Positions 23,381 to 60,253 of a DNA stretch of 64,000 nucleotides are shown piece after piece. Origin of the DNA: Escherichia coli (GTDB taxonomy: Bacteria > Pseudomonadota > Gammaproteobacteria > Enterobacterales > Enterobacteriaceae); the NCBI RefSeq assembly GCF_024502345.1, contig NZ_JALDNN010000001.1; one strand, given 5' to 3'. Position 1 is the stretch's first letter, and every line of letters starts with the position of its first letter. The notes under the pieces were generated by a model, which searched no databases, had not been told where the DNA came from, and saw only the letters and a program-made list of their open reading frames with translations. The translations under genes were made by a program, and so were the position numbers.

Positions 23381-24028
23381 GGCACTGTTGCAAATAGTCG
23401 GTGGTGATAAACTTATCATCCCCTTTTGCTGATGGAGCTGCACATGAACCCATTCAAAGGCCGGCATTTTCAGCGTGACATCATTCTGTGGGCCGTACGC
23501 TGGTACTGCAAATACGGCATCAGTTACCGTGAGCTGCAGGAGATGCTGGCTGAACGCGGAGTGAATGTCGATCACTCCACGATTTACCGCTGGGTTCAGC
23601 GTTATGCGCCTGAAATGGAAAAACGGCTGCGCTGGTACTGGCGTAACCCTTCCGATCTTTGCCCGTGGCACATGGATGAAACCTACGTGAAGGTCAATGG
23701 CCGCTGGGCGTATCTGTACCGGGCCGTCGACAGCCGGGGCCGCACTGTCGATTTTTATCTCTCCTCCCGTCGTAACAGCAAAGCTGCATACCGGTTTCTG
23801 GGTAAAATCCTCAACAACGTGAAGAAGTGGCAGATCCCGCGATTCATCAACACGGATAAAGCGCCCGCCTATGGTCGCGCGCTTGCTCTGCTCAAACGCG
23901 AAGGCCGGTGCCCGTCTGACGTTGAACACCGACAGATTAAGTACCGGAACAACGTGATTGAATGCGATCATGGCAAACTGAAACGGATAATCGGCGCCAC
24001 GCTGGGATTTAAATCCATGAAGACGGCT
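23381..24028 (+). mobile_element. IS26, 3'-truncated (left IR plus ~648 bp)
   Basis: Left IR GGCACTGTTGCAAA at 23381-23394; transposase matches IS26 Tnp to ...ATLGFKSMKTA, then sequence diverges; right IR absent. Confidence 0.85.
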
Positions 24029-24031
24029 TAA
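23444..24031 (+). pseudogene. tnpA: IS26 transposase, C-terminally truncated (195 of ~234 aa)
   Basis: MNPFKGRHFQRDIILWAVRWYCKYGISYRELQEMLAERGVNVDHSTIYRWVQRYAPEMEKRL...; stop created at junction. Confidence 0.8.
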
Positions 24032-25017: not shown

Positions 25018-25548
25018 CTGGGCAGCATAGCGCATGATTGCAGTGATACGCTGCTGAAGGCGCGCTGCAATCTCATAAATCTCTTTGGCTTCGGCTGCCT
25101 TTACTGGAACAAGTAAATCGGGAGTTCTGAGGGTGGTAATGTCACGTGAACCGATAAAGGGAAACACATGAGTTTCTAGGCTTTTCAGTATCTTCTCACT
25201 ATGTGAGGCTGACCATTTTTTGTTGCTCTTATGCCACTGCCTTGCGATGCCTTCAAATGTCTGAGCTGTTTCGGGTACCGACTTTTTGATTCGTTTCTGT
25301 TCGCACGGGTCAGTTCCTTCAGCTATCTGCTTTCTCGCCGCATCGCGTTTTTCCCTTGCTTCTGATAACGAGACTTCAGGATAGACACCCAGGGCGAGCG
25401 TTTTCTCTTTGCCCAGAAACCGGTAGCGGAGTCGCCAGTAGCGCGAGCCGTTAGGGTGAACGAGCAAAAACATGTTGCCGCTGTCGGCAAGTTTATAAGG
25501 TTTTTCATCCGGTTTAGCTGCACGGATTTTAGCGTCAGTGAGCGCCAT
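25018..25548 (-). pseudogene. P4-type tyrosine integrase, N-terminal ~175 codons only (catalytic domain missing)
   Basis: MALTDAKIRAAKPDEKPYKLADSGNMFLLVHPNGSRYWRLRYRFLGKEKTLALGVYPEVSLSEAREKRDAARK matches P4/CP4 integrase N-termini; ~195 bp downstream of the tRNA-Phe terminator. Confidence 0.75.
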
Positions 25549-25704
25549 TGGCGGTATCTCCTGATAGTAAAAGGGGCATAAATTTTATCGAATCAGACTA
25601 TACCCTCAGTTGTACCCTCGCAAGGGGCTTGATGCGGGTAGAAGTTGATTGAGCTGGGTGGAGTTAATGGATTGAAGAGGTGTTGATTTCTGCGGGATTA
25701 GAAT

Positions 25705-25732
25705 GCAAAAACGGACCTCCGTGGAGGTCCGT
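25705..25732 (-). terminator. Rho-independent terminator downstream of tRNA-Phe
   Basis: Perfect hairpin acggacctcc-gt-ggaggtccgt followed on the minus strand by TTTTT. Confidence 0.6.
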
Positions 25733-25743
25733 TGATATGAATT

Positions 25744-25792
25744 TGGTGCCCGGACTCGGAATCGAACCAAGGACACGGGGATTTTCAATCCC
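25744..25792 (-). tRNA. tRNA-Phe (pheV/pheU type), 3'-terminal 49 nt only; island attachment-site remnant
   Basis: TGGTGCCCGGACTCGGAATCGAACCAAGGACACGGGGATTTTCAATCCC is the reverse complement of the tRNA-Phe 3' end including CCA; homology stops inside the anticodon arm. Confidence 0.8.
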
Positions 25793-42327: not shown

Positions 42328-43254
42328 CTACTTTTTGTCTTTTTTACGTGATGAAACAGCCTGCAGCCAAGCATGCTTCATTTTCTGAATAAAGAAATAT
42401 TTTTCTTCAACTCCAGTGTCCCAACTATCCATGCATGCAATGATCATCTGTATTCTCATTGCAGTGTTATATGGTTTTAAATAAAAGGGGATCATATTTT
42501 TATTTCTCAGATACTCCCAGCAATAGATAGCTTGCTTTTCATCTTTTTTATCTAGCCAGTCATAATCAGTAAGAAATGTATTATATTGCTCTAGCCATTT
42601 ATCATGCAACTTACGAAAATAGGAAATTTTCTGACTTAAACTTACAGGAGCTAAATCAATAAACCTCATCAAAGTACAAATGCGTTCTTGTTCGGATGTT
42701 GTATTCGGGCTGTAGTTGTCGGGATCTGCGCCAGATGTTAAATAAAATCTACGCGAGTATTTTTCAGGTATATCTCTATTTTTTTCTTTATTGCTAGGGG
42801 AGGTTCCCACCTGCATTTCGGCTTGTACTTCATCAAGTGAGAAATTTTTAATTTCATCAATGTTTATAAATTCAAAAAAGGATGCAGGAGTTGAGTTCGG
42901 GTTGTAAATATTATCTTGTGCAAAGATATTCACGCTCGAGGAGGTTTCAGGACTGATTCTGTTGTTATATATATACATTAAGGCAAACCACGATCCTCTA
43001 TCAGAACCTTTGAAACAATCGAACTTCTCTTTGTCAATGATTTTGTAATGGAACTGTTTTTTCAAGTAAGTACGCGCACTTTGTATTGCTTCATTATTGA
43101 ATAGGAATTTAGTGTTCAATATATGATTAATGAGTTTTTGAAATTCCTCAGGCGTGTCGAAATTACTCGCCTGCTTAATGTAATCTTCGTTGTAATACAG
43201 ACTCAGAACGTAAAGGGAAAAGAACTCCTCTCTCACTTCGTCATACCTAAGCAT
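42328..43254 (-). CDS. Hypothetical low-GC 308-aa protein, Asn/Lys/Tyr/Phe-rich
   Basis: Long ORF in strongly AT-rich DNA, first gene of the co-oriented block containing the YfjP/YfjQ/WYL genes. Confidence 0.5.
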   Translation of the reverse strand: MLRYDEVREEFFSLYVLSLYYNEDYIKQASNFDTPEEFQKLINHILNTKFLFNNEAIQSARTYLKKQFHYKIIDKEKFDCFKGSDRGSWFALMYIYNNRISPETSSSVNIFAQDNIYNPNSTPASFFEFINIDEIKNFSLDEVQAEMQVGTSPSNKEKNRDIPEKYSRRFYLTSGADPDNYSPNTTSEQERICTLMRFIDLAPVSLSQKISYFRKLHDKWLEQYNTFLTDYDWLDKKDEKQAIYCWEYLRNKNMIPFYLKPYNTAMRIQMIIACMDSWDTGVEEKYFFIQKMKHAWLQAVSSRKKDKK

Positions 43255-43572
43255 GTACCCTCCAGTGTGATATCACATCTGTCCGATGCTTTCAAAAGTA
43301 TAAATGAACCATGATGATTTGGCATCTGCAAGGTGACTGTTGACTGGTTTTTTGCTGATTTTTTAATGATAAAGTAGTGATTACTAACTGATTAGTAAGT
43401 GATTAATGGCTGGTTGCCTCCTGTGATTTTTCTGCCTCTGGTAAATTGGGGGAGAGTACTGATCAACTCACCACTCTGAATAATTTTCATGATTGCACTC
43501 TACAAAGTTTCGACATCCGTCAAATTGTAACGGTCAGAGAACAGCGTTACACGAGGTTTTCCGTATCTATGC

Positions 43573-44629
43573 GGCTTTGTTGAATAAATCGAACTTTTGC
43601 TGAGTTGAAGGATCAGATCACGTATCTTCCCGACAACGCAGACCGTTCCGTGGCAAAGCAAAAGTTCAAAATCACCAACTGGCCCACCTACAATAAAGCC
43701 CTCATCAACCGTGGCTCCATAACTTTCTGGCTGGATGATGAAGCTATTCAGGCCTGGTATGAGTCAGCAACACCTTCTTCACGAGGCAGACCTCAGCGCT
43801 ATTCTGACCTTGCCATCACGACTGTGCTGGTCATTAAACGCGTATTCAGGCTGACCCTGCGCGCTGCGCAGGGCTTTATTGATTCCATTTTTTCTCTGAT
43901 GAACGTTCCGCTACGCTGCCCGGATTACAGCTGTGTCAGCAGGCGGGCAAAGTCGGTTAATGTCAGTTTCAAAACGCCCACCCGGGGTGAAATCGCACAC
44001 CTGGTAATTGATTCCACCGGGCTGAAGGTCTTCGGTGAAGGCGAGTGGAAAGTCAAAAAGCATGGCCAGGAACGCCGCCGTATCTGGCGTAAGCTGCATC
44101 TCGCCGTTGACAGTAAAACACATGAAATCATCTGCGCTGACCTGTCGCTGAACAACGTTACGGACTCAGAGGCCTTCCCCGGGTTAATCCGGCAAACCCA
44201 CCGGAAAATCAGGTCAGCCGCCGCCGATGGCGCTTACGATACCCGGCTATGTCACGATGAACTGCGGCGTAAGAAAATCAGCGCGCTTATCCCTCCCCGA
44301 AAAGGTGCGGGTTACTGGCCCGGTGAATATGCAGACCGTAACCGTGCAGTGGCTAATCAGCGAATGACCGGGAGTAATGCGCGGTGGAAATGGACAACAG
44401 ATTACAACCGTCGCTCGATAGCGGAAACGGCGATGTACCGGGTAAAACAGCTGTTCGGGGGTTCACTGACACTGCGTGACTACGATGGTCAGGTTGCAGA
44501 GGCTATGGCCCTGGTACGAGCGCTGAACAAAATGACGAAAGCAGGTATGCCTGAAAGCGTGCGTATTGCCTGAAAACACAACCCGCTACGGGGGAGACTT
44601 ACCCGAAATCTGATTTATTCAACAAAGCC
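43573..44629 (+). mobile_element. IS903-group (IS5 family) insertion sequence, complete, 1057 bp, no target-site duplication
   Basis: Terminal inverted repeats GGCTTTGTTGAATAAATC at 43573-43590 and 44612-44629; flanking 9-mers tatctatgc vs actgtgttt differ. Confidence 0.9.
43605..44573 (+). CDS. IS903-type transposase
   Basis: 322-aa ORF MKDQITYLPDNADRSVAKQKFKITNWPTYNKALINRGSITFWLDDEAIQAWY... with DDE motif region. Confidence 0.9.
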   Translation: MKDQITYLPDNADRSVAKQKFKITNWPTYNKALINRGSITFWLDDEAIQAWYESATPSSRGRPQRYSDLAITTVLVIKRVFRLTLRAAQGFIDSIFSLMNVPLRCPDYSCVSRRAKSVNVSFKTPTRGEIAHLVIDSTGLKVFGEGEWKVKKHGQERRRIWRKLHLAVDSKTHEIICADLSLNNVTDSEAFPGLIRQTHRKIRSAAADGAYDTRLCHDELRRKKISALIPPRKGAGYWPGEYADRNRAVANQRMTGSNARWKWTTDYNRRSIAETAMYRVKQLFGGSLTLRDYDGQVAEAMALVRALNKMTKAGMPESVRIA

Positions 44630-45024
44630 ACTGTGTTTATCAAATTCCATGCCCTTTTTGCTGCTTAATTTTAAATGACACTCTGATCATGCACCGTGAT
44701 TGAAATAAGTTATAGCCACCCCTTAATCATTTTTTTCAGACGACATTAACTTCGGAGTAAATAATTTAACACAATGAAATATCAAACCGCATCTGGCCTG
44801 AATGTTGAGTATTAATACGTGACGGATTGTTAATATATATCAGTACATAAACCCCAATATTCCAGTAATACACACCTACACAATACACACCAAGCAATTT
44901 AGTCAGCATCACCCAACTAACATCCAACACAAACTCAATAAGCCAGATTTGATACCACCTAATTACCTCAACCATCGCGGGTAAGGTTCCGTCCTGCCCG
45001 ATATTCAGATCACAGGAATCTATT

Positions 45025-45636
45025 ATGCTTAATGATATTTATCTTGACCAACGTCATGCCCCATTCAATACAACGTATTTGCAACGGATGCTGGGTGTAA
45101 TTGATAACGCTATAGCACAACACCCAAGGACAATGGCTGTCCGTGTCGATCTACGTCTGCCTGATGACAACTGTAATAGGAATAGTGGTCTGATATCCCG
45201 TTTCATTGAATCGCTTAATGCAAAAATCGATGCTCGGTACCGAAATAAAATAAAGAATGGCATCAGGAGCTACCCATGCCAGTTGCGTTACGCCTGGGTT
45301 CGGGAAGTGGGAGAAATAAACGAGAAGTCCCATTACCACATGGTACTTTTCGTGAACAAAGACACATTCAATGGACTTGGGAGCTATGGAGAAGGGGGAA
45401 CGGGATTAGCCAGCCTGATACGTGAAGCCTGGCTGAGCGCTTTGCAACTAGGCCCTTACCCCGAATACCGAACGTTGGTCCACATCCCGGACAACCCATT
45501 GTATTACCTGGACGTCAATAATTTAGACTACAAAACGGTTTACGATAAACTCACTTTCAGGCTGAGTTATTTTGCGAAAGAGCGCACCAAGTCATACAGC
45601 CGAGATGAACGCTCGTTTGGCTGCAGTCAGTCCTGA
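45025..45636 (+). CDS. YagK/YfjJ-family protein (inovirus Gp2-like), CP4-type island backbone
   Basis: 203 aa; MLNDIYLDQRHAPFNTTYLQRM...YHMVLFVNKDTF pattern recalled for YfjJ/YagK. Confidence 0.55.
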   Translation: MLNDIYLDQRHAPFNTTYLQRMLGVIDNAIAQHPRTMAVRVDLRLPDDNCNRNSGLISRFIESLNAKIDARYRNKIKNGIRSYPCQLRYAWVREVGEINEKSHYHMVLFVNKDTFNGLGSYGEGGTGLASLIREAWLSALQLGPYPEYRTLVHIPDNPLYYLDVNNLDYKTVYDKLTFRLSYFAKERTKSYSRDERSFGCSQS

Positions 45637-45871
45637 GGCAAAACAAACTAAGTCTATAAAGATTTTTTCAGCCTGGCTCTAATCGACTGAATCTCAGCAT
45701 ACTCCGCTTTTGAAGCCTTGACACGTCAGTTGTTCTTTCACCTCTGAGTGGCTACTCGCGACTGCCTGCAGGAGACTGATTATGTTATTGACCGCAAAAT
45801 CCATTAACTGACTTTTCGACTTAATCTCCTTAAGTTATGTGAGAAATTTGCCGATATGAAAACATGATCCT

Positions 45872-45908
45872 CCAGTCGCTACTGACATGCCCTGTCAGTA
45901 GCGACTGG
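45872..45908. promoter_or_regulatory. Perfect 16-bp inverted repeat with 5-nt spacer upstream of the HTH gene fragment
   Basis: ccagtcgctactgaca-tgccc-tgtcagtagcgactgg, ~35 bp upstream of the ATG at 45942. Confidence 0.4.
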
Positions 45909-45941
45909 TAATCTCAAGGAAAAATTACAAGGAGAACGCGC

Positions 45942-46176
45942 ATGAGCGGGCATGAGGTAATGGTACAAAGAATAACCGCTATTATTGCAGAACTTTACCA
46001 GTACGGTTTTGTATCACGTAAGAAGATGATGGACGAATTCAACATCAGTGAGCGTACTTTGTATCGTGATCTTAATCGTCTGGGCGACAGAATCGTCCCC
46101 GATGGTGATGGTATTTACAGGCTGGCTCCCGCTTACGCTAAACCTCAGGCTCTAAAAGAACAACAAAATCTCGGCC
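45942..46176 (+). pseudogene. HTH (DeoR-like) regulator gene, 5' fragment (~78 codons), joined without IS to appC
   Basis: MSGHEVMVQRITAIIAELYQYGFVSRKKMMDEFNISERTLYRDLNRL; frame runs into appC sequence at ~46175. Confidence 0.45.
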
Positions 46177-47133
46177 ATGTTTATTATGGCGATCAGCGCC
46201 TGGTATTTACTGCGCGGACGGGAGCGCGATGTCGCATTACGCTCGTTTGCCATCGGTTCCGTCTTCGGTACTCTGGCGATTATTGGCACGCTGCAACTCG
46301 GAGACAGTTCTGCGTATGAAGTCGCGCAAGTACAACCGGTAAAACTGGCGGCGATGGAAGGGGAGTGGCAAACGGAACCTGCACCTGCACCGTTCCATGT
46401 GGTTGCCTGGCCGGAACAGGATCAAGAGCGTAACGCCTTTGCCATCAAAATTCCCGCGCTGCTAGGGATCCTCGCCACTCACTCATTAGATAAACCCGTG
46501 CCGGGTCTGAAGAATTTGATGGCTGAAACCTACCCACGCTTGCAACGCGGACGTATGGCCTGGCTGTTAATGCAGGAAATATCGCAAGGCAATCGTGAGC
46601 CGCATGTGTTGCAGGCATTCCGGGAACTGGAAGGTGACCTGGGCTACGGCATGTTGCTCTCCCGCTATGCGCCGGATATGAATCATGTCACAGCCGCACA
46701 GTACCAGGCGGCGATGCGTGGTGCAATACCTCAGGTTGCGCCGGTATTCTGGAGTTTCCGCATCATGGTGGGCTGTGGTTCCCTGCTGCTACTGGTGATG
46801 CTGATTGCGCTTGTCCAGACGCTGCGTGGCAAAATCGACCAGCATCGCTGGGTGCTGAAAATGGCGCTCTGGAGTTTGCCGTTGCCGTGGATTGCGATTG
46901 AAGCCGGGTGGTTTATGACCGAGTTTGGTCGTCAGCCGTGGGCGATACAGGACATCTTACCGACATACTCCGCGCACTCCGCCTTAACCACAGGACAACT
47001 GGCTTTCTCACTGATCATGATCGTAGGGCTTTACACCCTGTTCTTAATCGCCGAAGTCTACCTGATGCAGAAATATGCCCGTCTGGGGCCGAGCGCGATG
47101 CAGAGTGAACAACCGACGCAGCAACAGGGGTAA
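46177..47133 (+). pseudogene. appC: Cytochrome bd-II oxidase subunit I (AppC/CbdA), 3' portion only (~318 of ~514 codons)
   Basis: C-terminal AppC sequence ...WIAIEAGWFMTEFGRQPWAIQDILPTYSAHS...; N-terminal heme-binding half absent. Confidence 0.8.
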
Positions 47134-47144
47134 AGGAGAAAATC

Positions 47145-48281
47145 ATGTTTGATTATGAAACATTGCGCTTCATCTGGTGGCTGCTGATTGGCGTGATCCT
47201 GGTGGTCTTTATGATCTCCGACGGATTTGACATGGGGATCGGCTGTTTGCTGCCGCTGGTGGCGCGTAATGATGATGAACGCCGGATAGTGATTAATAGC
47301 GTTGGTGCGCACTGGGAAGGCAATCAGGTCTGGTTGATCCTCGCAGGTGGGGCATTATTTGCCGCCTGGCCCAGAGTGTATGCAGCGGCGTTTTCCGGCT
47401 TTTATGTGGCGATGATCCTGGTGCTGTGCTCGCTGTTCTTCCGCCCGCTGGCCTTTGATTATCGCGGAAAAATCGCCGATGCACGCTGGCGTAAAATGTG
47501 GGATGCCGGTCTGGTCATCGGCAGTCTGGTGCCGCCGGTAGTCTTCGGTATCGCCTTCGGCAACTTGTTGCTCGGCGTGCCGTTTGCCTTCACACCGCAA
47601 TTACGCGTGGAGTATCTCGGCAGCTTCTGGCAACTGCTGACGCCATTCCCTTTATTGTGCGGATTGCTCAGCCTTGGGATGGTGATTTTGCAAGGTGGCG
47701 TCTGGTTACAACTGAAAACTGTTGGTGTGATTCATCTGCGTTCACAGCTGGCGACTAAACGCGCTGCACTGTTGGTGATGCTGTGCTTTTTGCTGGCGGG
47801 TTACTGGCTGTGGGTCGGTATTGATGGCTTTGTACTGCTCGCCCAGGATGCTAACGGTCCTTCCAATCCGTTAATGAAACTGGTGGCAGTGCTACCTGGT
47901 GCCTGGATGAATAATTTTGTCGAGTCGCCCGTTTTGTGGATCTTCCCGCTACTGGGGTTCTTCTGCCCATTGCTGACGGTGATGGCGATTTATCGTGGTC
48001 GCCCGGGTTGGGGATTTTTGATGGCATCATTGATGCAATTTGGCGTGATTTTCACGGCAGGCATCACGCTGTTCCCCTTTGTCATGCCGTCAAGCGTGAG
48101 TCCAATCTCCAGCCTGACGTTGTGGGACAGCACTTCCAGTCAGCTGACGCTGAGTATTATGTTGGTAATCGTGCTGATATTTTTGCCCATTGTGTTGCTC
48201 TACACTCTCTGGAGCTACTACAAAATGTGGGGGCGCATGACGACAGAAACTCTCCGCCGTAACGAAAACGAGCTGTACTAA
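47145..48281 (+). CDS. appB: Cytochrome bd-II oxidase subunit II (AppB/CbdB)
   Basis: 378-aa membrane protein [33 protein letters not shown]... Confidence 0.9.
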
Positions 48282-48293
48282 GGAGCAGGAACA

Positions 48294-48386
48294 ATGTGGT
48301 ATTTACTTTGGTTCGTCGGCATTTTGTTGATGTGTTCGCTCTCCACCCTTGTGTTGGTATGGCTGGACCCGCGATTGAAAAGTTAA
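48294..48386 (+). CDS. appX: Cytochrome bd-II accessory small membrane protein AppX
   Basis: 30-codon ORF MWYLLWFVGILLMCSLSTLVLVWLDPRLKS with SD AGGAGCAGG upstream. Confidence 0.7.
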   Translation: MWYLLWFVGILLMCSLSTLVLVWLDPRLKS

Positions 48387-48465
48387 CGAACGTAAGTCTG
48401 ATGCGGCGCATTAGCGTCGTATCAGGCAATCAATAATGTCGGATATGAAAAGCGGAAACATATCG

Positions 48466-49764
48466 ATGAAAGCGATCTTGATCCCATTTTTATCTCTTCT
48501 GATTCCGTTAACCCCGCAATCTGCATTCGCTCAGAGTGAGCCGGAGCTGAAGCTGGAAAGTGTGGTGATTGTCAGTCGTCATGGTGTGCGTGCCCCAACC
48601 AAGGCCACGCAACTGATGCAGGATGTCACCCCAGACGCATGGCCAACCTGGCCGGTAAAACTGGGTTGGCTGACACCGCGCGGTGGTGAGCTAATCGCTT
48701 ATCTCGGACATTACCAACGCCAGCGTCTGGTAGCCGACGGATTGCTGACGAAAAAGGGCTGCCCGCAGCCTGGTCAGGTCGCGATTATTGCTGATGTCGA
48801 CGAGCGTACCCGTAAAACAGGCGAAGCCTTCGCCGCCGGGCTGGCACCTGACTGTGCAATAACCGTACATACCCAGGCAGATACGTCCAGTCCCGATCCG
48901 TTATTTAATCCTCTAAAAACTGGCGTTTGCCAACTGGATAACGCGAACGTGACTGACGCGATCCTCAGCAGGGCTGGAGGGTCAATTGCTGACTTTACCG
49001 GGCATCGGCAAACGGCGTTTCGCGAACTGGAACGGGTGCTTAATTTTCCGCAATCAAACTTGTGCCTTAACCGTGAGAAACAGGACGAAAGCTGTTCATT
49101 AACGCAGGCATTACCATCGGAACTCAAGGTGAGCGCCGACAATGTCTCATTAACCGGTGCGGTAAGCCTCGCATCAATGCTGACGGAGATATTTCTCCTG
49201 CAACAGGCACAGGGAATGCCGGAGCCGGGGTGGGGAAGGATCACTGATTCACACCAGTGGAACACGTTGCTAAGTTTGCATAACGCGCAATTTTATTTAC
49301 TACAACGCACGCCGGAGGTTGCCCGCAGCCGCGCCACCCCGTTGTTGGATTTGATCATGACAGCGTTGACGCCCCATCCACCGCAAAAACAGGCGTATGG
49401 TGTGATATTACCCACTTCAGTGCTGTTTATCGCCGGACACGATACTAATCTGGCAAATCTCGGCGGCGCACTGGAGCTCAACTGGACGCTTCCAGGTCAG
49501 CCGGATAACACGCCGCCAGGTGGTGAACTGGTGTTTGAACGCTGGCGTCGGCTAAGCGATAACAGCCAGTGGATTCAGGTTTCGCTGGTCTTCCAGACTT
49601 TACAGCAGATGCGTGATAAAACGCCGCTGTCATTAAATACGCCGCCCGGAGAGGTGAAACTGACCCTGGCAGGATGTGAAGAGCGAAATGCGCAGGGCAT
49701 GTGTTCGTTGGCCGGTTTTACGCAAATCGTGAATGAAGCACGCATACCGGCGTGCAGTTTGTAA
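48466..49764 (+). CDS. appA: Periplasmic acid phosphatase / phytase AppA
   Basis: 432 aa from MKAILIPFLSLLIPLTPQSAFA; histidine acid phosphatase motif RHGVRAP. Confidence 0.9.
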   Translation: MKAILIPFLSLLIPLTPQSAFAQSEPELKLESVVIVSRHGVRAPTKATQLMQDVTPDAWPTWPVKLGWLTPRGGELIAYLGHYQRQRLVADGLLTKKGCPQPGQVAIIADVDERTRKTGEAFAAGLAPDCAITVHTQADTSSPDPLFNPLKTGVCQLDNANVTDAILSRAGGSIADFTGHRQTAFRELERVLNFPQSNLCLNREKQDESCSLTQALPSELKVSADNVSLTGAVSLASMLTEIFLLQQAQGMPEPGWGRITDSHQWNTLLSLHNAQFYLLQRTPEVARSRATPLLDLIMTALTPHPPQKQAYGVILPTSVLFIAGHDTNLANLGGALELNWTLPGQPDNTPPGGELVFERWRRLSDNSQWIQVSLVFQTLQQMRDKTPLSLNTPPGEVKLTLAGCEERNAQGMCSLAGFTQIVNEARIPACSL

Positions 49765-49774
49765 TGCATAAAAA

Positions 49775-49800
49775 AGAGCATTCAGCTACCTGAATGCTCT
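49775..49800. terminator. Hairpin between convergent appA and etk ends
   Basis: Perfect 11-bp inverted repeat agagcattcag-ctac-ctgaatgctct. Confidence 0.45.
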
Positions 49801-49830
49801 GAGGCTGATGACAAACGAAGAACTGTCTAA

Positions 49831-49870
49831 TGCGTAGACCGGAAAAGGCGTTCACGCCGCATCCGGTCAC
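49831..49870. repeat. REP (repetitive extragenic palindromic) element
   Basis: tgcgtagaccggaaaaggcgttcacgccgcatccggtcac resembles the E. coli REP consensus. Confidence 0.5.
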
Positions 49871-49883
49871 TTTACCTTCAGTT

Positions 49884-50578
49884 TTACTCTTTCTCGGAGT
49901 AACTATAACCGTAATAGTTATAGCCGTAACTGTAAGCGGTGCTGGCGCGTTTAATCACACCATTGAGGATAGCGCCTTTAATATTGACGCCTGCCTGTTC
50001 CAGACGCTGCATTGACAAGCTCACCTCTTTGGCGGTGTTCAGGCCAAAACGCGCAACCAGCAGGCTGGTGCCGACAGAGCGCCCCACGACCGCAGCATCG
50101 CTCACCGCCAGCATCGGCGGCGTATCGACAATCACCAGATCGTAATGGTCGTTCGCCCATTCCAGTAATTGACGCATCCGATCGCGCATCAGCAGTTCAG
50201 ACGGGTTAGGTGGCATCTGACCGCGAGTAATCACATCAAAGCCTCCTTTGCCAAAATGCTGGATCACTTTGTTGAGCTCATCTTTACCTGCCAGATATTC
50301 CGACAAGCCATGTGCATTACTCACGGTAAACAGGTTATGCGAATAACCATGGCGTAAGTCGGCATCAATAAATAACACTTTTTGATCGGACTGGGCGATC
50401 ACCGCTGCCAGAGTTGAACTGACAAATGTTTTACCACTGTCTGGCGTCGCACCGGTGATCATCAGAATGTTATTCTCAGTCTCCATCATAGCGAAATGCA
50501 GACTGGTTCGTAGCGCACGTACGGCTTCCACAGCAGAATCCGCCGGGTTATCCACCGCCAGGAAGGGGATATTTTTAG
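49884..50578 (-). pseudogene. etk: Tyrosine-protein kinase Etk/Wzc family, C-terminal ~230 codons only; 5' part removed at the IS5 junction
   Basis: Walker A/B kinase domain (GATPDSGKTFVSSTLAAV, DLVIVDTPP) and Tyr-rich tail YSYGYNYYGYSYSEKE; reading frame runs into the IS5 end at 50579. Confidence 0.75.
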
Positions 50579-51773
<1,195 letters not shown>

Positions 51774-52368
51774 CAAGAGAACGCAACAGCGCACTTGCTT
51801 TGCCACAGTTGAATTTTGTGCCGTAACGATGTGCAAGCATGTAAGCATAAGGAGTCAAGGTATAGCGTGTTACTTAGTTACTCGGATTAACAATCCCAAC
51901 GTACAGAGCGGCGGATTTACAGAGTCAGCGCAGTCCCTGCTCCGGCAGTCAGTGGCAGGCGGCGTACTGAAGCAAACCATTATCGATACCGGCATCGGCG
52001 ATACCATCGGCATGCTGATGTCACACGGCAATATTTCTCCCTACATCATGGCGTGGTTGATAACCGTGCTGATCCGTCTGGCAACGGGTCAGGGCGTGGT
52101 CTCAGCCATGACGGCGGCGGGGATTATTAGCGCAGCAATCCTCGACCCGGCAACCGGTCAACTGGTGGGCGTCGACCCGGCGTTGCTGGTGCTGGCAACA
52201 GCGGCTGGCTCCAACACGCTGACCCATATCAACGATGCTTCGTTCTGGCTGTTCAAAGGCTACTTTGATCTGTCGGTGAAGGATACGCTGAAAACCTGGG
52301 GTCTGCTGGAGCTGGTAAACTCCGTGGTTGGCCTGATAATCGTGTTGATCATCAGCATGATTGCATAA
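51774..52368 (+). pseudogene. GntP-family permease, C-terminal fragment
   Basis: ...[44 protein letters not shown]...[27 protein letters not shown]; 5' boundary not resolved, upstream frame runs into IS5. Confidence 0.55.
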
Positions 52369-59024: not shown

Positions 59025-59281
59025 ACCATTGTCAACCCCGTCAAATTCGCGGCAATCGAATTTGACGACATAGTGACCAAAAAGGTTTGCACCGCCCCGG
59101 GAACGGAACGAGGCAACAGACTTTACGATTTGTCGGCGCTGACTAAAATAGCGCCGATGTTTCAAATCGAGGATTGTTGTTATGTTGTTCTGGAAAAAGA
59201 TGGTGAAGAAGTTCGACGCCTTTTCCGGTGATGCTGCCAACTTACTGATTTAGTGTATGATGGTGTTTTTGAGGTGCTCCA

Positions 59282-59557
59282 GTGGCTTCTGTTTCTATCA
59301 GCTGTCCCTCCTGTTCAGCTACTGACGGGGTGGTGCGTAACGGCAAAAGCACCGCCGGACATCAGCGCTATCTCTGCTCTCACTGCCGTAAAACATGGCA
59401 ACTGCAGTTCACTTACACCGCTTCTCAACCCGGTACGCACCAGAAAATCATTGATATGGCCATGAATGGCGTTGGATGCCGGGCAACCGCCCGCATTATG
59501 GGCGTTGGCCTCAACACGATTTTCCGCCATTTAAAAAACTCAGGCCGCAGTCGGTAA
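59282..59557 (+). CDS. insA: IS1 InsA
   Basis: 91 aa [43 protein letters not shown]... Confidence 0.85.
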
Positions 59558-59979
59558 CCTCGCGCATACAGCCGGGCAGTGACGTCATCGTCTGCGCGGA
59601 AATGGACGAACAGTGGGGATACGTCGGGGCTAAATCGCGCCAGCGCTGGCTGTTTTACGCGTATGACAGGCTCCGGAAGACGGTTGTTGCGCACGTATTC
59701 GGTGAACGCACTATGGCGACGCTGGGGCGTCTTATGAGCCTGCTGTCACCCTTTGACGTGGTGATATGGATGACGGATGGCTGGCCGCTGTATGAATCCC
59801 GCCTGAAGGGAAAGCTGCACGTAATCAGCAAGCGATATACGCAGCGAATTGAGCGGCATAACCTGAATCTGAGGCAGCACCTGGCACGGCTGGGACGGAA
59901 GTCGCTGTCGTTCTCAAAATCGGTGGAGCTGCATGACAAAGTCATCGGGCATTATCTGAACATAAAACACTATCAATAA
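59476..59979 (+). CDS. insB: IS1 InsB (made as InsAB' by programmed frameshift)
   Basis: 167-aa overlapping ORF, typical IS1 organisation. Confidence 0.8.
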
Positions 59980-60253
59980 GTTGGAGTCATTACCGACCGG
60001 GTTAAACCGGAAATGCGACACCTCGGAAGTGTCTCCTGAAAACCTTTCATCAGTACGCTCATCATGCTGTTCATAGAGTAGTCCAAATACAGTACCGTAC
60101 AGTACGGTACGTTTTATATCTTGACTTCTGAGCGCCGTCAAATGAAAATGTACTCGTCAGTACGATTACGAACCCTACTATCTGACGTGATTCCGAAATC
60201 TGAGAACAAAAAGTGTTGGCCCCGGCCAGACACCTAAACTAACGAGGAAACAT

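What the first reader, a model, noticed from the sequence alone, without database searches (positions are those of the whole stretch)
43573..44629. Complete IS903-group element without target-site duplication
Both 18-bp inverted repeats are intact but the flanking 9-mers differ, so this copy probably mediated a deletion or recombination rather than a simple insertion. It separates the YfjP/WYL block from the YagK-like gene.
Basis: seen in the sequence. Interest (0 to 1): 0.3.

Follow-up and report, generated by a model that had tools for sequence, protein, structure and literature searches.

The report
IS903B copy replacing a 347-bp segment
This is an ordinary, intact copy of the common insertion sequence IS903B in an E. 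coli genomic island; it has no flanking duplication because it sits exactly where 347 bp, including a small alpA-type regulator gene, have been deleted.

Summary
Window 43573-44629 is a complete 1057-bp IS903B with perfect 18-bp inverted repeats and an intact DDE transposase gene. It is 100% identical to many plasmid copies. Its flanking 9-mers (TATCTATGC / ACTGTGTTT) are unrelated.

Twenty-eight complete E. coli genomes carry both flanks without the IS. In those genomes the flanks are about 333-372 bp apart, not contiguous. In the relatives with 100% identical flanks the gap is exactly 347 bp, and it encodes a 68-aa Phage_AlpA-family regulator. In the window the IS replaces precisely this segment, which is not found anywhere else in the window.

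The most likely history is a simple insertion at one boundary, followed by a transposase-mediated adjacent deletion to the other boundary. This is a documented behaviour of IS903. I could not exclude recombination between two IS copies, or a one-step insertion with deletion. Both ancestral boundary 9-mers score like real IS903-group target sites.

Copies without a target-site duplication (TSD) are common: 29 of 52 IS903-group copies in a sample of representative genomes, and 3 of 9 distinct E. coli chromosomal IS903B loci sampled. This is a known kind of event, well resolved here, and of low interest.

The parts
43573..43590 (+). Left 18-bp terminal inverted repeat of IS903B (GGCTTTGTTGAATAAATC)
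   Evidence: Exact match; inverted-repeat pair I1.
43573..44629 (+). Complete IS903B element, 1057 bp
   Evidence: 100% identity over the full length to many plasmid copies annotated 'IS5-like element IS903B family transposase'. It is the only copy in the window.
43650..44573 (+). Transposase gene. It encodes 307 aa from the GTG at 43650. NCBI's PGAP pipeline annotates the same frame in other genomes as a 969-bp CDS, equivalent to the TTG at 43605. The frame is intact and D121, D193 and E259 are present.
   Evidence: NF033579 IS5-family transposase, 357.6 bits. Pfam DDE_Tnp_1_5 and DDE_Tnp_1. Residues read; that these positions are the catalytic triad is from my own knowledge. 969-bp CDS annotations.
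44612..44629 (-). Right 18-bp terminal inverted repeat of IS903B
   Evidence: Exact match on the minus strand.
43564..43572 (.). Left junction 9-mer TATCTATGC, equal to G3/10 locus L001 4992-5000. The ancestral sequence continues with the 347 bp that are missing here.
   Evidence: As a target site it scores at the 87th-92nd percentile on an empirical IS903-group target matrix.
44630..44638 (.). Right junction 9-mer ACTGTGTTT, equal to L001 5348-5356, the first bases after the missing 347 bp.
   Evidence: Target-site score at the 98th-99th percentile.
42328..43254 (-). Left neighbour: a 308-aa ORF with no family match. It is transcribed away from the IS. 318 bp of its upstream region are retained.
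   Evidence: Identical gene in G3/10 (WP_001547760.1).
45025..45636 (+). Right neighbour: a YagK/YfjJ-family ('inovirus Gp2 family') gene, 395 bp downstream of the IS. In relatives the deleted alpA-family gene precedes it.
   Evidence: Pfam YagK_YfjJ_C, 177 bits. Gene order in relatives.

Best explanation
An intact IS903B entered this CP4-type genomic island of an E. coli chromosome. It is probably a recent arrival, because it is 100% identical to widespread plasmid copies. It now occupies the exact position of a 347-bp deletion. The deletion removed the 68-aa alpA-family (Phage_AlpA) regulator gene, 131 bp upstream of that gene and 9 bp downstream of it. Those points are shown. The proposed history is inferred. 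First, IS903B made a normal insertion with a 9-bp duplication at one of the two boundary 9-mers, either TATCTATGC or ACTGTGTTT. Second, its transposase carried out an intramolecular, replicative-type transposition into the other 9-mer 347 bp away. That event excised the intervening DNA as a circle carrying a second IS copy. It left one IS joined to the original flank on one side and to the new target on the other, so no duplication remains. A likely consequence is loss of the island's AlpA-type regulator, a family first described as an activator of CP4-57 prophage excision. The stated confidence applies to this two-step mechanism. The descriptive part (IS903B plus an exact 347-bp deletion) is near certain.
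For: The IS is complete and intact. In G3/10 the flanks match the window at 100% over 3983 bp on the left and 99.98% over 5720 bp on the right, and they are separated by exactly 347 bp. All 28 complete E. coli genomes that have both flanks keep a spacer of about 333-372 bp. Eight further assemblies all show the Phage_AlpA gene between the same neighbours, and L124 again has a 347-bp spacer. The missing segment encodes a Phage_AlpA protein, 34 bits against a cutoff of 21. It is absent from the rest of the window; only chance hits with E >= 2.6 were found. There is no microhomology at the deletion boundaries. Both ancestral boundary 9-mers with their 5-bp flanks score like real targets on a matrix built from 23 natural IS903-group insertions that have a TSD: 87th-92nd and 98th-99th percentile, with random position pairs reaching both scores 0.1% of the time. 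The matrix shows the T-rich and A-rich flank positions of the published motif WTTYA-N9-TRAAW (PMC2577343). IS903 is reported to produce adjacent deletions and cointegrates (PMC11708052; PMC12670165). In the long-term evolution experiment (LTEE) with E. coli, all 14 IS-plus-deletion events proved to be insertion followed by adjacent deletion.
Against: No intermediate was found, that is, no simple IS903B insertion with a TSD at either boundary. None of the 5,426 complete E. coli genomes has IS903B at either junction, and neither junction sequence occurs in the JGI metagenome contigs. The order and number of events are therefore inferred. The target matrix is weak (23 sites, mostly from IS903 relatives 83-93% identical to IS903B) and was applied after the fact. 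The matrix result fits the two-IS recombination model equally well. The LTEE base rate comes from IS150, not IS903.
Confidence: 0.55

Rival explanations
1. Two IS903B copies inserted independently, in the same orientation, at the two boundary 9-mers. Homologous (RecA-dependent) recombination between them then deleted one copy together with the 347 bp between them. The survivor kept the left flank of one copy and the right flank of the other.
For: This predicts exactly the observed junctions and also explains why both 9-mers look like good targets. Exchange of flanks between IS copies is clearly common in this group: reciprocal flank swaps are seen among Mixta mediterraneensis copies (L072/L077 and L076/L084). 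IS903B is abundant in E. coli, present in 1,993 of 5,426 genomes with a median of 2 places.
Against: It needs three events instead of two, including two same-orientation hits within 347 bp. No genome with that arrangement was found. Only one copy is present in the 64-kb window.
Confidence: 0.25
2. A one-step event: IS903B arrived and the 347 bp were lost in the same transposition. Either the two IS ends attacked two separate target positions, or the IS was captured at a pre-existing double-strand gap, as Ngan et al. 2024 proposed for an IS5-family element.
For: A de novo IS5-family movement (assigned by the authors to the IS903 sub-group) with a 62-kb deletion and no TSD was observed directly in E. 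coli C (PMC11708052). No intermediate was found here.
Against: Those authors concede that a rapid two-step history is possible. Capture at a random break would not predict that both boundaries resemble IS903 target sites. Absence of an intermediate among sampled genomes is weak evidence, because the window's own lineage is not in the collection.
Confidence: 0.12
3. An assembly artefact: the real genome has two IS903B copies around the 347-bp segment, or a different arrangement, and the assembler collapsed or misjoined the repeats.
For: Multi-copy IS elements are a classic cause of collapsed or misjoined assemblies. Reads are not available to me.
Against: Both junctions are clean to the base, and the two flanks are neighbours in the same orientation in all relatives. 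A random misjoin would not reproduce that.
Confidence: 0.03
4. A simple insertion whose duplication was misread, or relatives that gained the 347 bp rather than the window losing it.
For: None found.
Against: The flanks are never contiguous in IS-free genomes. The spacer with the alpA-family gene is kept in alleles whose flanks are 95-100% identical to the window's. No direct repeat exists at any offset.
Confidence: 0.01

Closest known systems
IS903B (IS5 family, IS903 group; relatives are IS903 of Tn903, IS102 and IS602)
   Same: Length 1057 bp, perfect 18-bp terminal inverted repeats and a single DDE transposase ORF. The sequence is 100% identical to copies annotated as IS903B on plasmids of Escherichia, Salmonella and Citrobacter.
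   Different: This copy lacks the 9-bp target duplication that the element makes when it inserts. That difference comes from the copy's history, not from the element itself.
IS903 adjacent deletions (the replicative, cointegrate-type pathway; cited in PMC11708052 and PMC12670165)
   Same: The IS is retained intact, DNA directly next to one end is lost, there is no TSD, and there is no microhomology at the boundaries.
   Different: The pre-deletion intermediate and the excised circle cannot be observed here. At 347 bp the deletion is at the small end of the 14 bp to 48.9 kb range reported for LTEE IS150 events.
De novo IS-plus-deletion events without a TSD (Ngan et al. 2024, mBio, PMC11708052)
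   Same: An IS5-family IS sits at the centre of a deletion with no TSD.
   Different: That case was caught in real time and removed 62 kb. This is a natural isolate with a 347-bp loss and an unknown timing.
AlpA of prophage CP4-57 (Pfam PF05930). This applies to the deleted gene, not to the IS.
   Same: The gene lost from the window is a 68-aa Phage_AlpA/HTH_17 protein. It lies in a CP4-type island next to a YagK/YfjJ-family gene.
   Different: Its function in this island has not been tested. That it controls excision here is an inference from the family name.

Membership tests
IS903B / IS903 group of the IS5 family | Element length of about 1057 bp | tested here: met
   43573-44629 is 1057 bp.
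IS903B / IS903 group of the IS5 family | Perfect 18-bp terminal inverted repeats GGCTTTGTTGAATAAATC | tested here: met
   Two exact matches on opposite strands at the element ends.
IS903B / IS903 group of the IS5 family | A single intact IS5-family DDE transposase of about 307 aa | tested here: met
   NF033579, 357.6 bits against a cutoff of 140. Pfam DDE_Tnp_1_5 and DDE_Tnp_1. D121, D193 and E259 present (the positions are from my own knowledge).
IS903B / IS903 group of the IS5 family | Nucleotide identity to reference copies named IS903B | tested here: met
   100% over 1057 bp to many records annotated IS903B. The ISfinder reference sequence itself was not available.
IS903B / IS903 group of the IS5 family | 9-bp direct target duplication flanking the copy | tested here: not met
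   TATCTATGC against ACTGTGTTT, and no repeat at any offset. This feature marks a simple insertion event rather than the element. It is also absent from 29 of 52 group copies and from 3 of 9 distinct sampled E. coli loci.
IS-associated adjacent deletion | The IS-free ancestral allele has extra DNA between the two flanks, and that DNA is missing exactly at an IS end | tested here: met
   347 bp (L001 5001-5347) lie between the flanks in G3/10, and comparable spacers occur in the 27 other genomes.
IS-associated adjacent deletion | An earlier state with the same IS at one boundary, flanked by a TSD | tested here: inconclusive
   Not found in 5,426 complete E. coli genomes or in JGI metagenomes. 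The window's own lineage is not represented in either collection.
IS-associated adjacent deletion | Dependence on the transposase (not RecA) and on both IS ends | not testable with these tools
   This needs genetics.
Phage_AlpA family (the deleted gene) | Match to PF05930 above the gathering score | tested here: met
   34.0 bits against a cutoff of 21 for L001 5132-5338. Precomputed hits exist in 8 assemblies.

The most novel reading that the evidence does not exclude
The IS903B copy and the 347-bp loss arose in a single TSD-less transposition event: either the ends were inserted at two separate targets, or the IS was captured at a break. In addition, loss of the island's alpA-type regulator may be recurrently favoured, since an independent IS3 insertion disrupts the same gene in strain 1368KP.
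Probability: 0.1. Interest if true: 0.3.

Novelty: already known. Interest (0 to 1): 0.1.

Why it matters
It matters little beyond correct annotation. It is a clean, base-resolved natural example of an IS903B copy associated with a small deletion. It explains why this copy has no target duplication, and it shows that this strain's CP4-type island has lost its alpA-family regulator, which may affect whether the island can still excise. It also gives a rough base rate: one third to one half of complete IS903-group copies lack a TSD. A missing TSD should therefore not be flagged as unusual on its own.

Tried and rejected
- **Displaced segment or second copy.** I looked for the 347-bp segment elsewhere in the window, which would indicate an inversion or translocation, and for a second full or partial IS903B copy. 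Neither was found.
- **Shifted boundaries.** I tested for a direct repeat at shifted boundaries and found none longer than 4 nt.
- **Junctions or an intermediate elsewhere.** None of the 5,426 complete E. coli genomes has IS903B at either junction. Exact-match scans of JGI metagenome contigs with each junction gave 0 hits. An exact-protein look-up of the YagK-like neighbour returned 8 places, all with the alpA-family gene present and no IS903B.
- **Regulatory or RNA elements.** An Rfam scan of the ancestral spacer and of the window around the IS found nothing credible. The promoter and terminator scan of the ancestral spacer gave no more sites than shuffled controls. I therefore make no claim about promoters that were removed or supplied.
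- **Published target motif.** Matching WTTYA-N9-TRAAW by simple counting did not discriminate (4 and 5 of 10 positions). The empirical matrix was more informative but remains weak.
- **Primary literature.** Hu & Derbyshire 1998 (PMC107802) is not held.
- **A nearby transposase in L124.** It is not IS903B, because it has no matching IRs, so I dropped it.

Full report
**What is there.** Window 43573-44629 is a 1057-bp element. It is bounded by the 18-mer GGCTTTGTTGAATAAATC at 43573-43590 (+) and its exact reverse complement at 44612-44629. These are the only two matches in the 64-kb window even when 3 mismatches are allowed, and 0.08 were expected by chance (see also pair I1). Between the repeats lies one long ORF on the + strand, 43605/43650-44573. 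Taken from the GTG at 43650, its 307-aa product matches the NCBIfam IS5-family transposase model NF033579 at 357.6 bits against a cutoff of 140. It also matches Pfam DDE_Tnp_1_5 and DDE_Tnp_1. D121, D193 and E259 are present; that these positions form the catalytic triad is from my own knowledge of IS903. The whole 1057 bp is 100% identical to many plasmid copies annotated 'IS5-like element IS903B family transposase' in Escherichia, Salmonella and Citrobacter. IS903B-like DNA occurs in 1,993 of 5,426 complete E. coli genomes. The element is therefore a complete, apparently functional IS903B.

**The flanks.** The 9 bases to the left are TATCTATGC (43564-43572) and the 9 to the right are ACTGTGTTT (44630-44638). 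The two 25-bp flanks share no word longer than 4 nt at any offset. These are WYL/HTH_DeoR, DUF932 and a YfjP-like GTPase on the minus strand to the left, and a YagK_YfjJ_C gene on the plus strand to the right.

**Reconstruction of the site before the IS.**
- A 3-kb query made of the IS plus 1 kb on each side found no complete E. coli genome with the same arrangement. It did find 28 genomes with both flanks and no IS.
- In those genomes the flanks are never contiguous. The match spans 2333-2372 bp, or 3608 bp in one strain with an IS3, against the 2000 bp of flank in the query.
- In strain G3/10 the flanks are identical to the window (100% over 3983 bp on the left, 99.98% over 5720 bp on the right). 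The left flank ends at locus position L001 5000 and the right flank starts at L001 5348. That leaves exactly 347 bp which the window lacks.
- Those 347 bp contain a 207-bp gene (L001 5132-5338) annotated as a helix-turn-helix regulator. It matches Pfam Phage_AlpA at 34 bits against a cutoff of 21.
- Eight further assemblies, retrieved through the exact YagK-like protein, all show the same order: 308-aa ORF, Phage_AlpA gene, YagK-like gene. One of them was aligned to the window and again gives a 347-bp spacer.
- Alleles that differ by 1.5-5% still keep the gene.
- The 347 bp are not anywhere else in the window.
- The ancestral state therefore had the spacer, and the window's lineage lost it exactly where the IS now sits.

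**How it probably happened.** Three histories give the observed junctions.
- **(1) Simple insertion, then adjacent deletion.** A simple insertion occurs at one boundary 9-mer, followed by a transposase-mediated adjacent deletion (intramolecular replicative transposition) into the other 9-mer.
- **(2) Two insertions, then recombination.** Two same-orientation insertions occur, one at each 9-mer, followed by homologous recombination between the copies.
- **(3) A single TSD-less event.** The IS arrives and the segment is lost in one step.
- **What the literature says.** IS903 is reported to make adjacent deletions and cointegrates, and these deletions are thought to need both IS ends and the replicative pathway (PMC11708052; PMC12670165). 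In the long-term evolution experiment (LTEE) with E. coli, all 14 IS-plus-deletion events (14 bp to 48.9 kb, none with a TSD) were traced to insertion followed by adjacent deletion. The same paper reports one IS5-family event that may have been one-step, although its authors allow a rapid two-step history.
- **Target-site test.** To ask whether the boundaries look transposase-chosen, I collected 52 complete IS903-group copies from representative genomes. I built a symmetrised position matrix from the 23 copies that carry a 9-bp TSD. It shows the T-rich and A-rich positions 4-6 bp outside the duplication, in line with the published motif WTTYA-N9-TRAAW (PMC2577343).
- **Result of the test.** In the ancestral sequence the left boundary site scores at the 87th-92nd percentile and the right at the 98th-99th percentile. 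Random position pairs reach both scores 0.1% of the time. The leave-one-out median score of true sites lies between the scores of the two boundary sites.
- **What the test means.** This mildly favours transposase-made junctions at both ends, that is histories 1 or 2, over capture at a random break. The matrix is weak and was applied after the fact.
- **Weighing.** There is no microhomology at the boundaries. History 1 needs fewer events than history 2. I put history 1 at about 0.55, history 2 at 0.25, history 3 at 0.12, and artefact or other at the remainder. No intermediate was found in complete E. coli genomes or in JGI metagenomes.

**How unusual is it.** It is not unusual.
- In the representative-genome sample, 29 of 52 complete IS903-group copies have no TSD. 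Shifting the boundaries by up to 3 bp rescues none of them. Excluding the IS-rich Mixta mediterraneensis genome, the figure is 14 of 24.
- Several of these copies show reciprocal flank swaps, the signature of recombination between IS copies.
- I sampled ten chromosomal IS903B copies from complete E. coli genomes, representing nine distinct loci. Six have a perfect TSD and three distinct loci have none.

**Consequences.** The deletion removes the whole alpA-family gene, 131 bp upstream of it and 9 bp downstream. It keeps 318 bp upstream of the divergent 308-aa ORF and 395 bp upstream of the YagK-like gene. The AlpA family was first described as an activator of CP4-57 prophage excision (Pfam description; own knowledge), so the island may have lost a regulator of its own mobility. 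This is inferred and not tested. Promoter, terminator and Rfam scans added nothing.

**Verdict.** The thing is a known element doing a known thing, so novelty is 'already known' and interest is low (0.1).

Noticed in passing
L132 (E. coli 1368KP, NZ_CM173843.1), about locus 1150-2410; corresponds to L001 ~5150: An IS3 is inserted a few codons into the same alpA-family gene that the window has lost, in a strain whose flanks are 100% identical to the window. The total length difference is 1261 bp, as expected for IS3 plus a short target duplication. This is a second, independent IS hit on this small gene.
   Followed up: partly
window 45942-47133: An HTH_DeoR N-terminal fragment (ORF 45942-46319) runs into a 5'-truncated appC/cbdA. 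The 46177-47133 product matches only positions 190-418 of the Cyt_bd_oxida_I profile. The same junction is annotated as two pseudogenes in G3/10. The island's right end therefore truncates the cytochrome bd-II oxidase subunit I gene in a whole group of strains.
   Followed up: no
window 49884-51705 and onward to about 56000: A truncated tyrosine-kinase (etk-like) gene abuts an ISKpn26-type IS5 transposase ORF (50725-51705, minus strand). Beyond it lies the ykgF/lactate-utilisation region. This is another IS-bounded rearrangement junction, shared with G3/10 and C 236-04A.
   Followed up: no
window 23381-24030 and 25316-25788: These two stretches match DNA that is directly adjacent in G3/10 (L002 15604/15605, the boundary between IS26 and a truncated Arm-DNA-binding integrase fragment). 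In the window they are in opposite relative orientation and 1285 bp apart, which suggests an IS26-associated inversion or insertion.
   Followed up: no
window 1-24000 versus 45300-51800: The window joins the glc/gss/pitB neighbourhood, through a mosaic island (type I restriction-modification genes, integrase fragments, a CP4-type module), to appC'BA-etk'. In reference E. coli maps these regions lie far apart (own knowledge). In G3/10 the YagK'-appC'-appB-appA-etk' block is present twice (L002 5656-13354 and 44182-49901).
   Followed up: no
window 59221-59996: An IS1 copy, about 99% identical to the IS1A copies of G3/10.
   Followed up: no
L072/L077 and L076/L084 (Mixta mediterraneensis contigs): Pairs of IS903-like copies carry reciprocally swapped flanking 9-mers (X-IS-Y and Y-IS-X). 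This is direct evidence of recombination between IS copies in a genome with dozens of copies.
   Followed up: partly
L028, L030, L042, L031, L095-L106: The exact 32-nt IS903 left end also occurs in metagenome-assembled genomes binned as Erysipelotrichia, Segatella copri and Bacillota, and in Paracoccus and Chryseobacterium assemblies. This probably reflects contamination or mis-binning rather than real host range.
   Followed up: no
L140 (E. coli ST648 chromosome, NZ_CP008697.1): A TSD-less IS903B copy, with 1 mismatch in its left inverted repeat, lies directly downstream of a chromosomal blaCTX-M-14.
   Followed up: no
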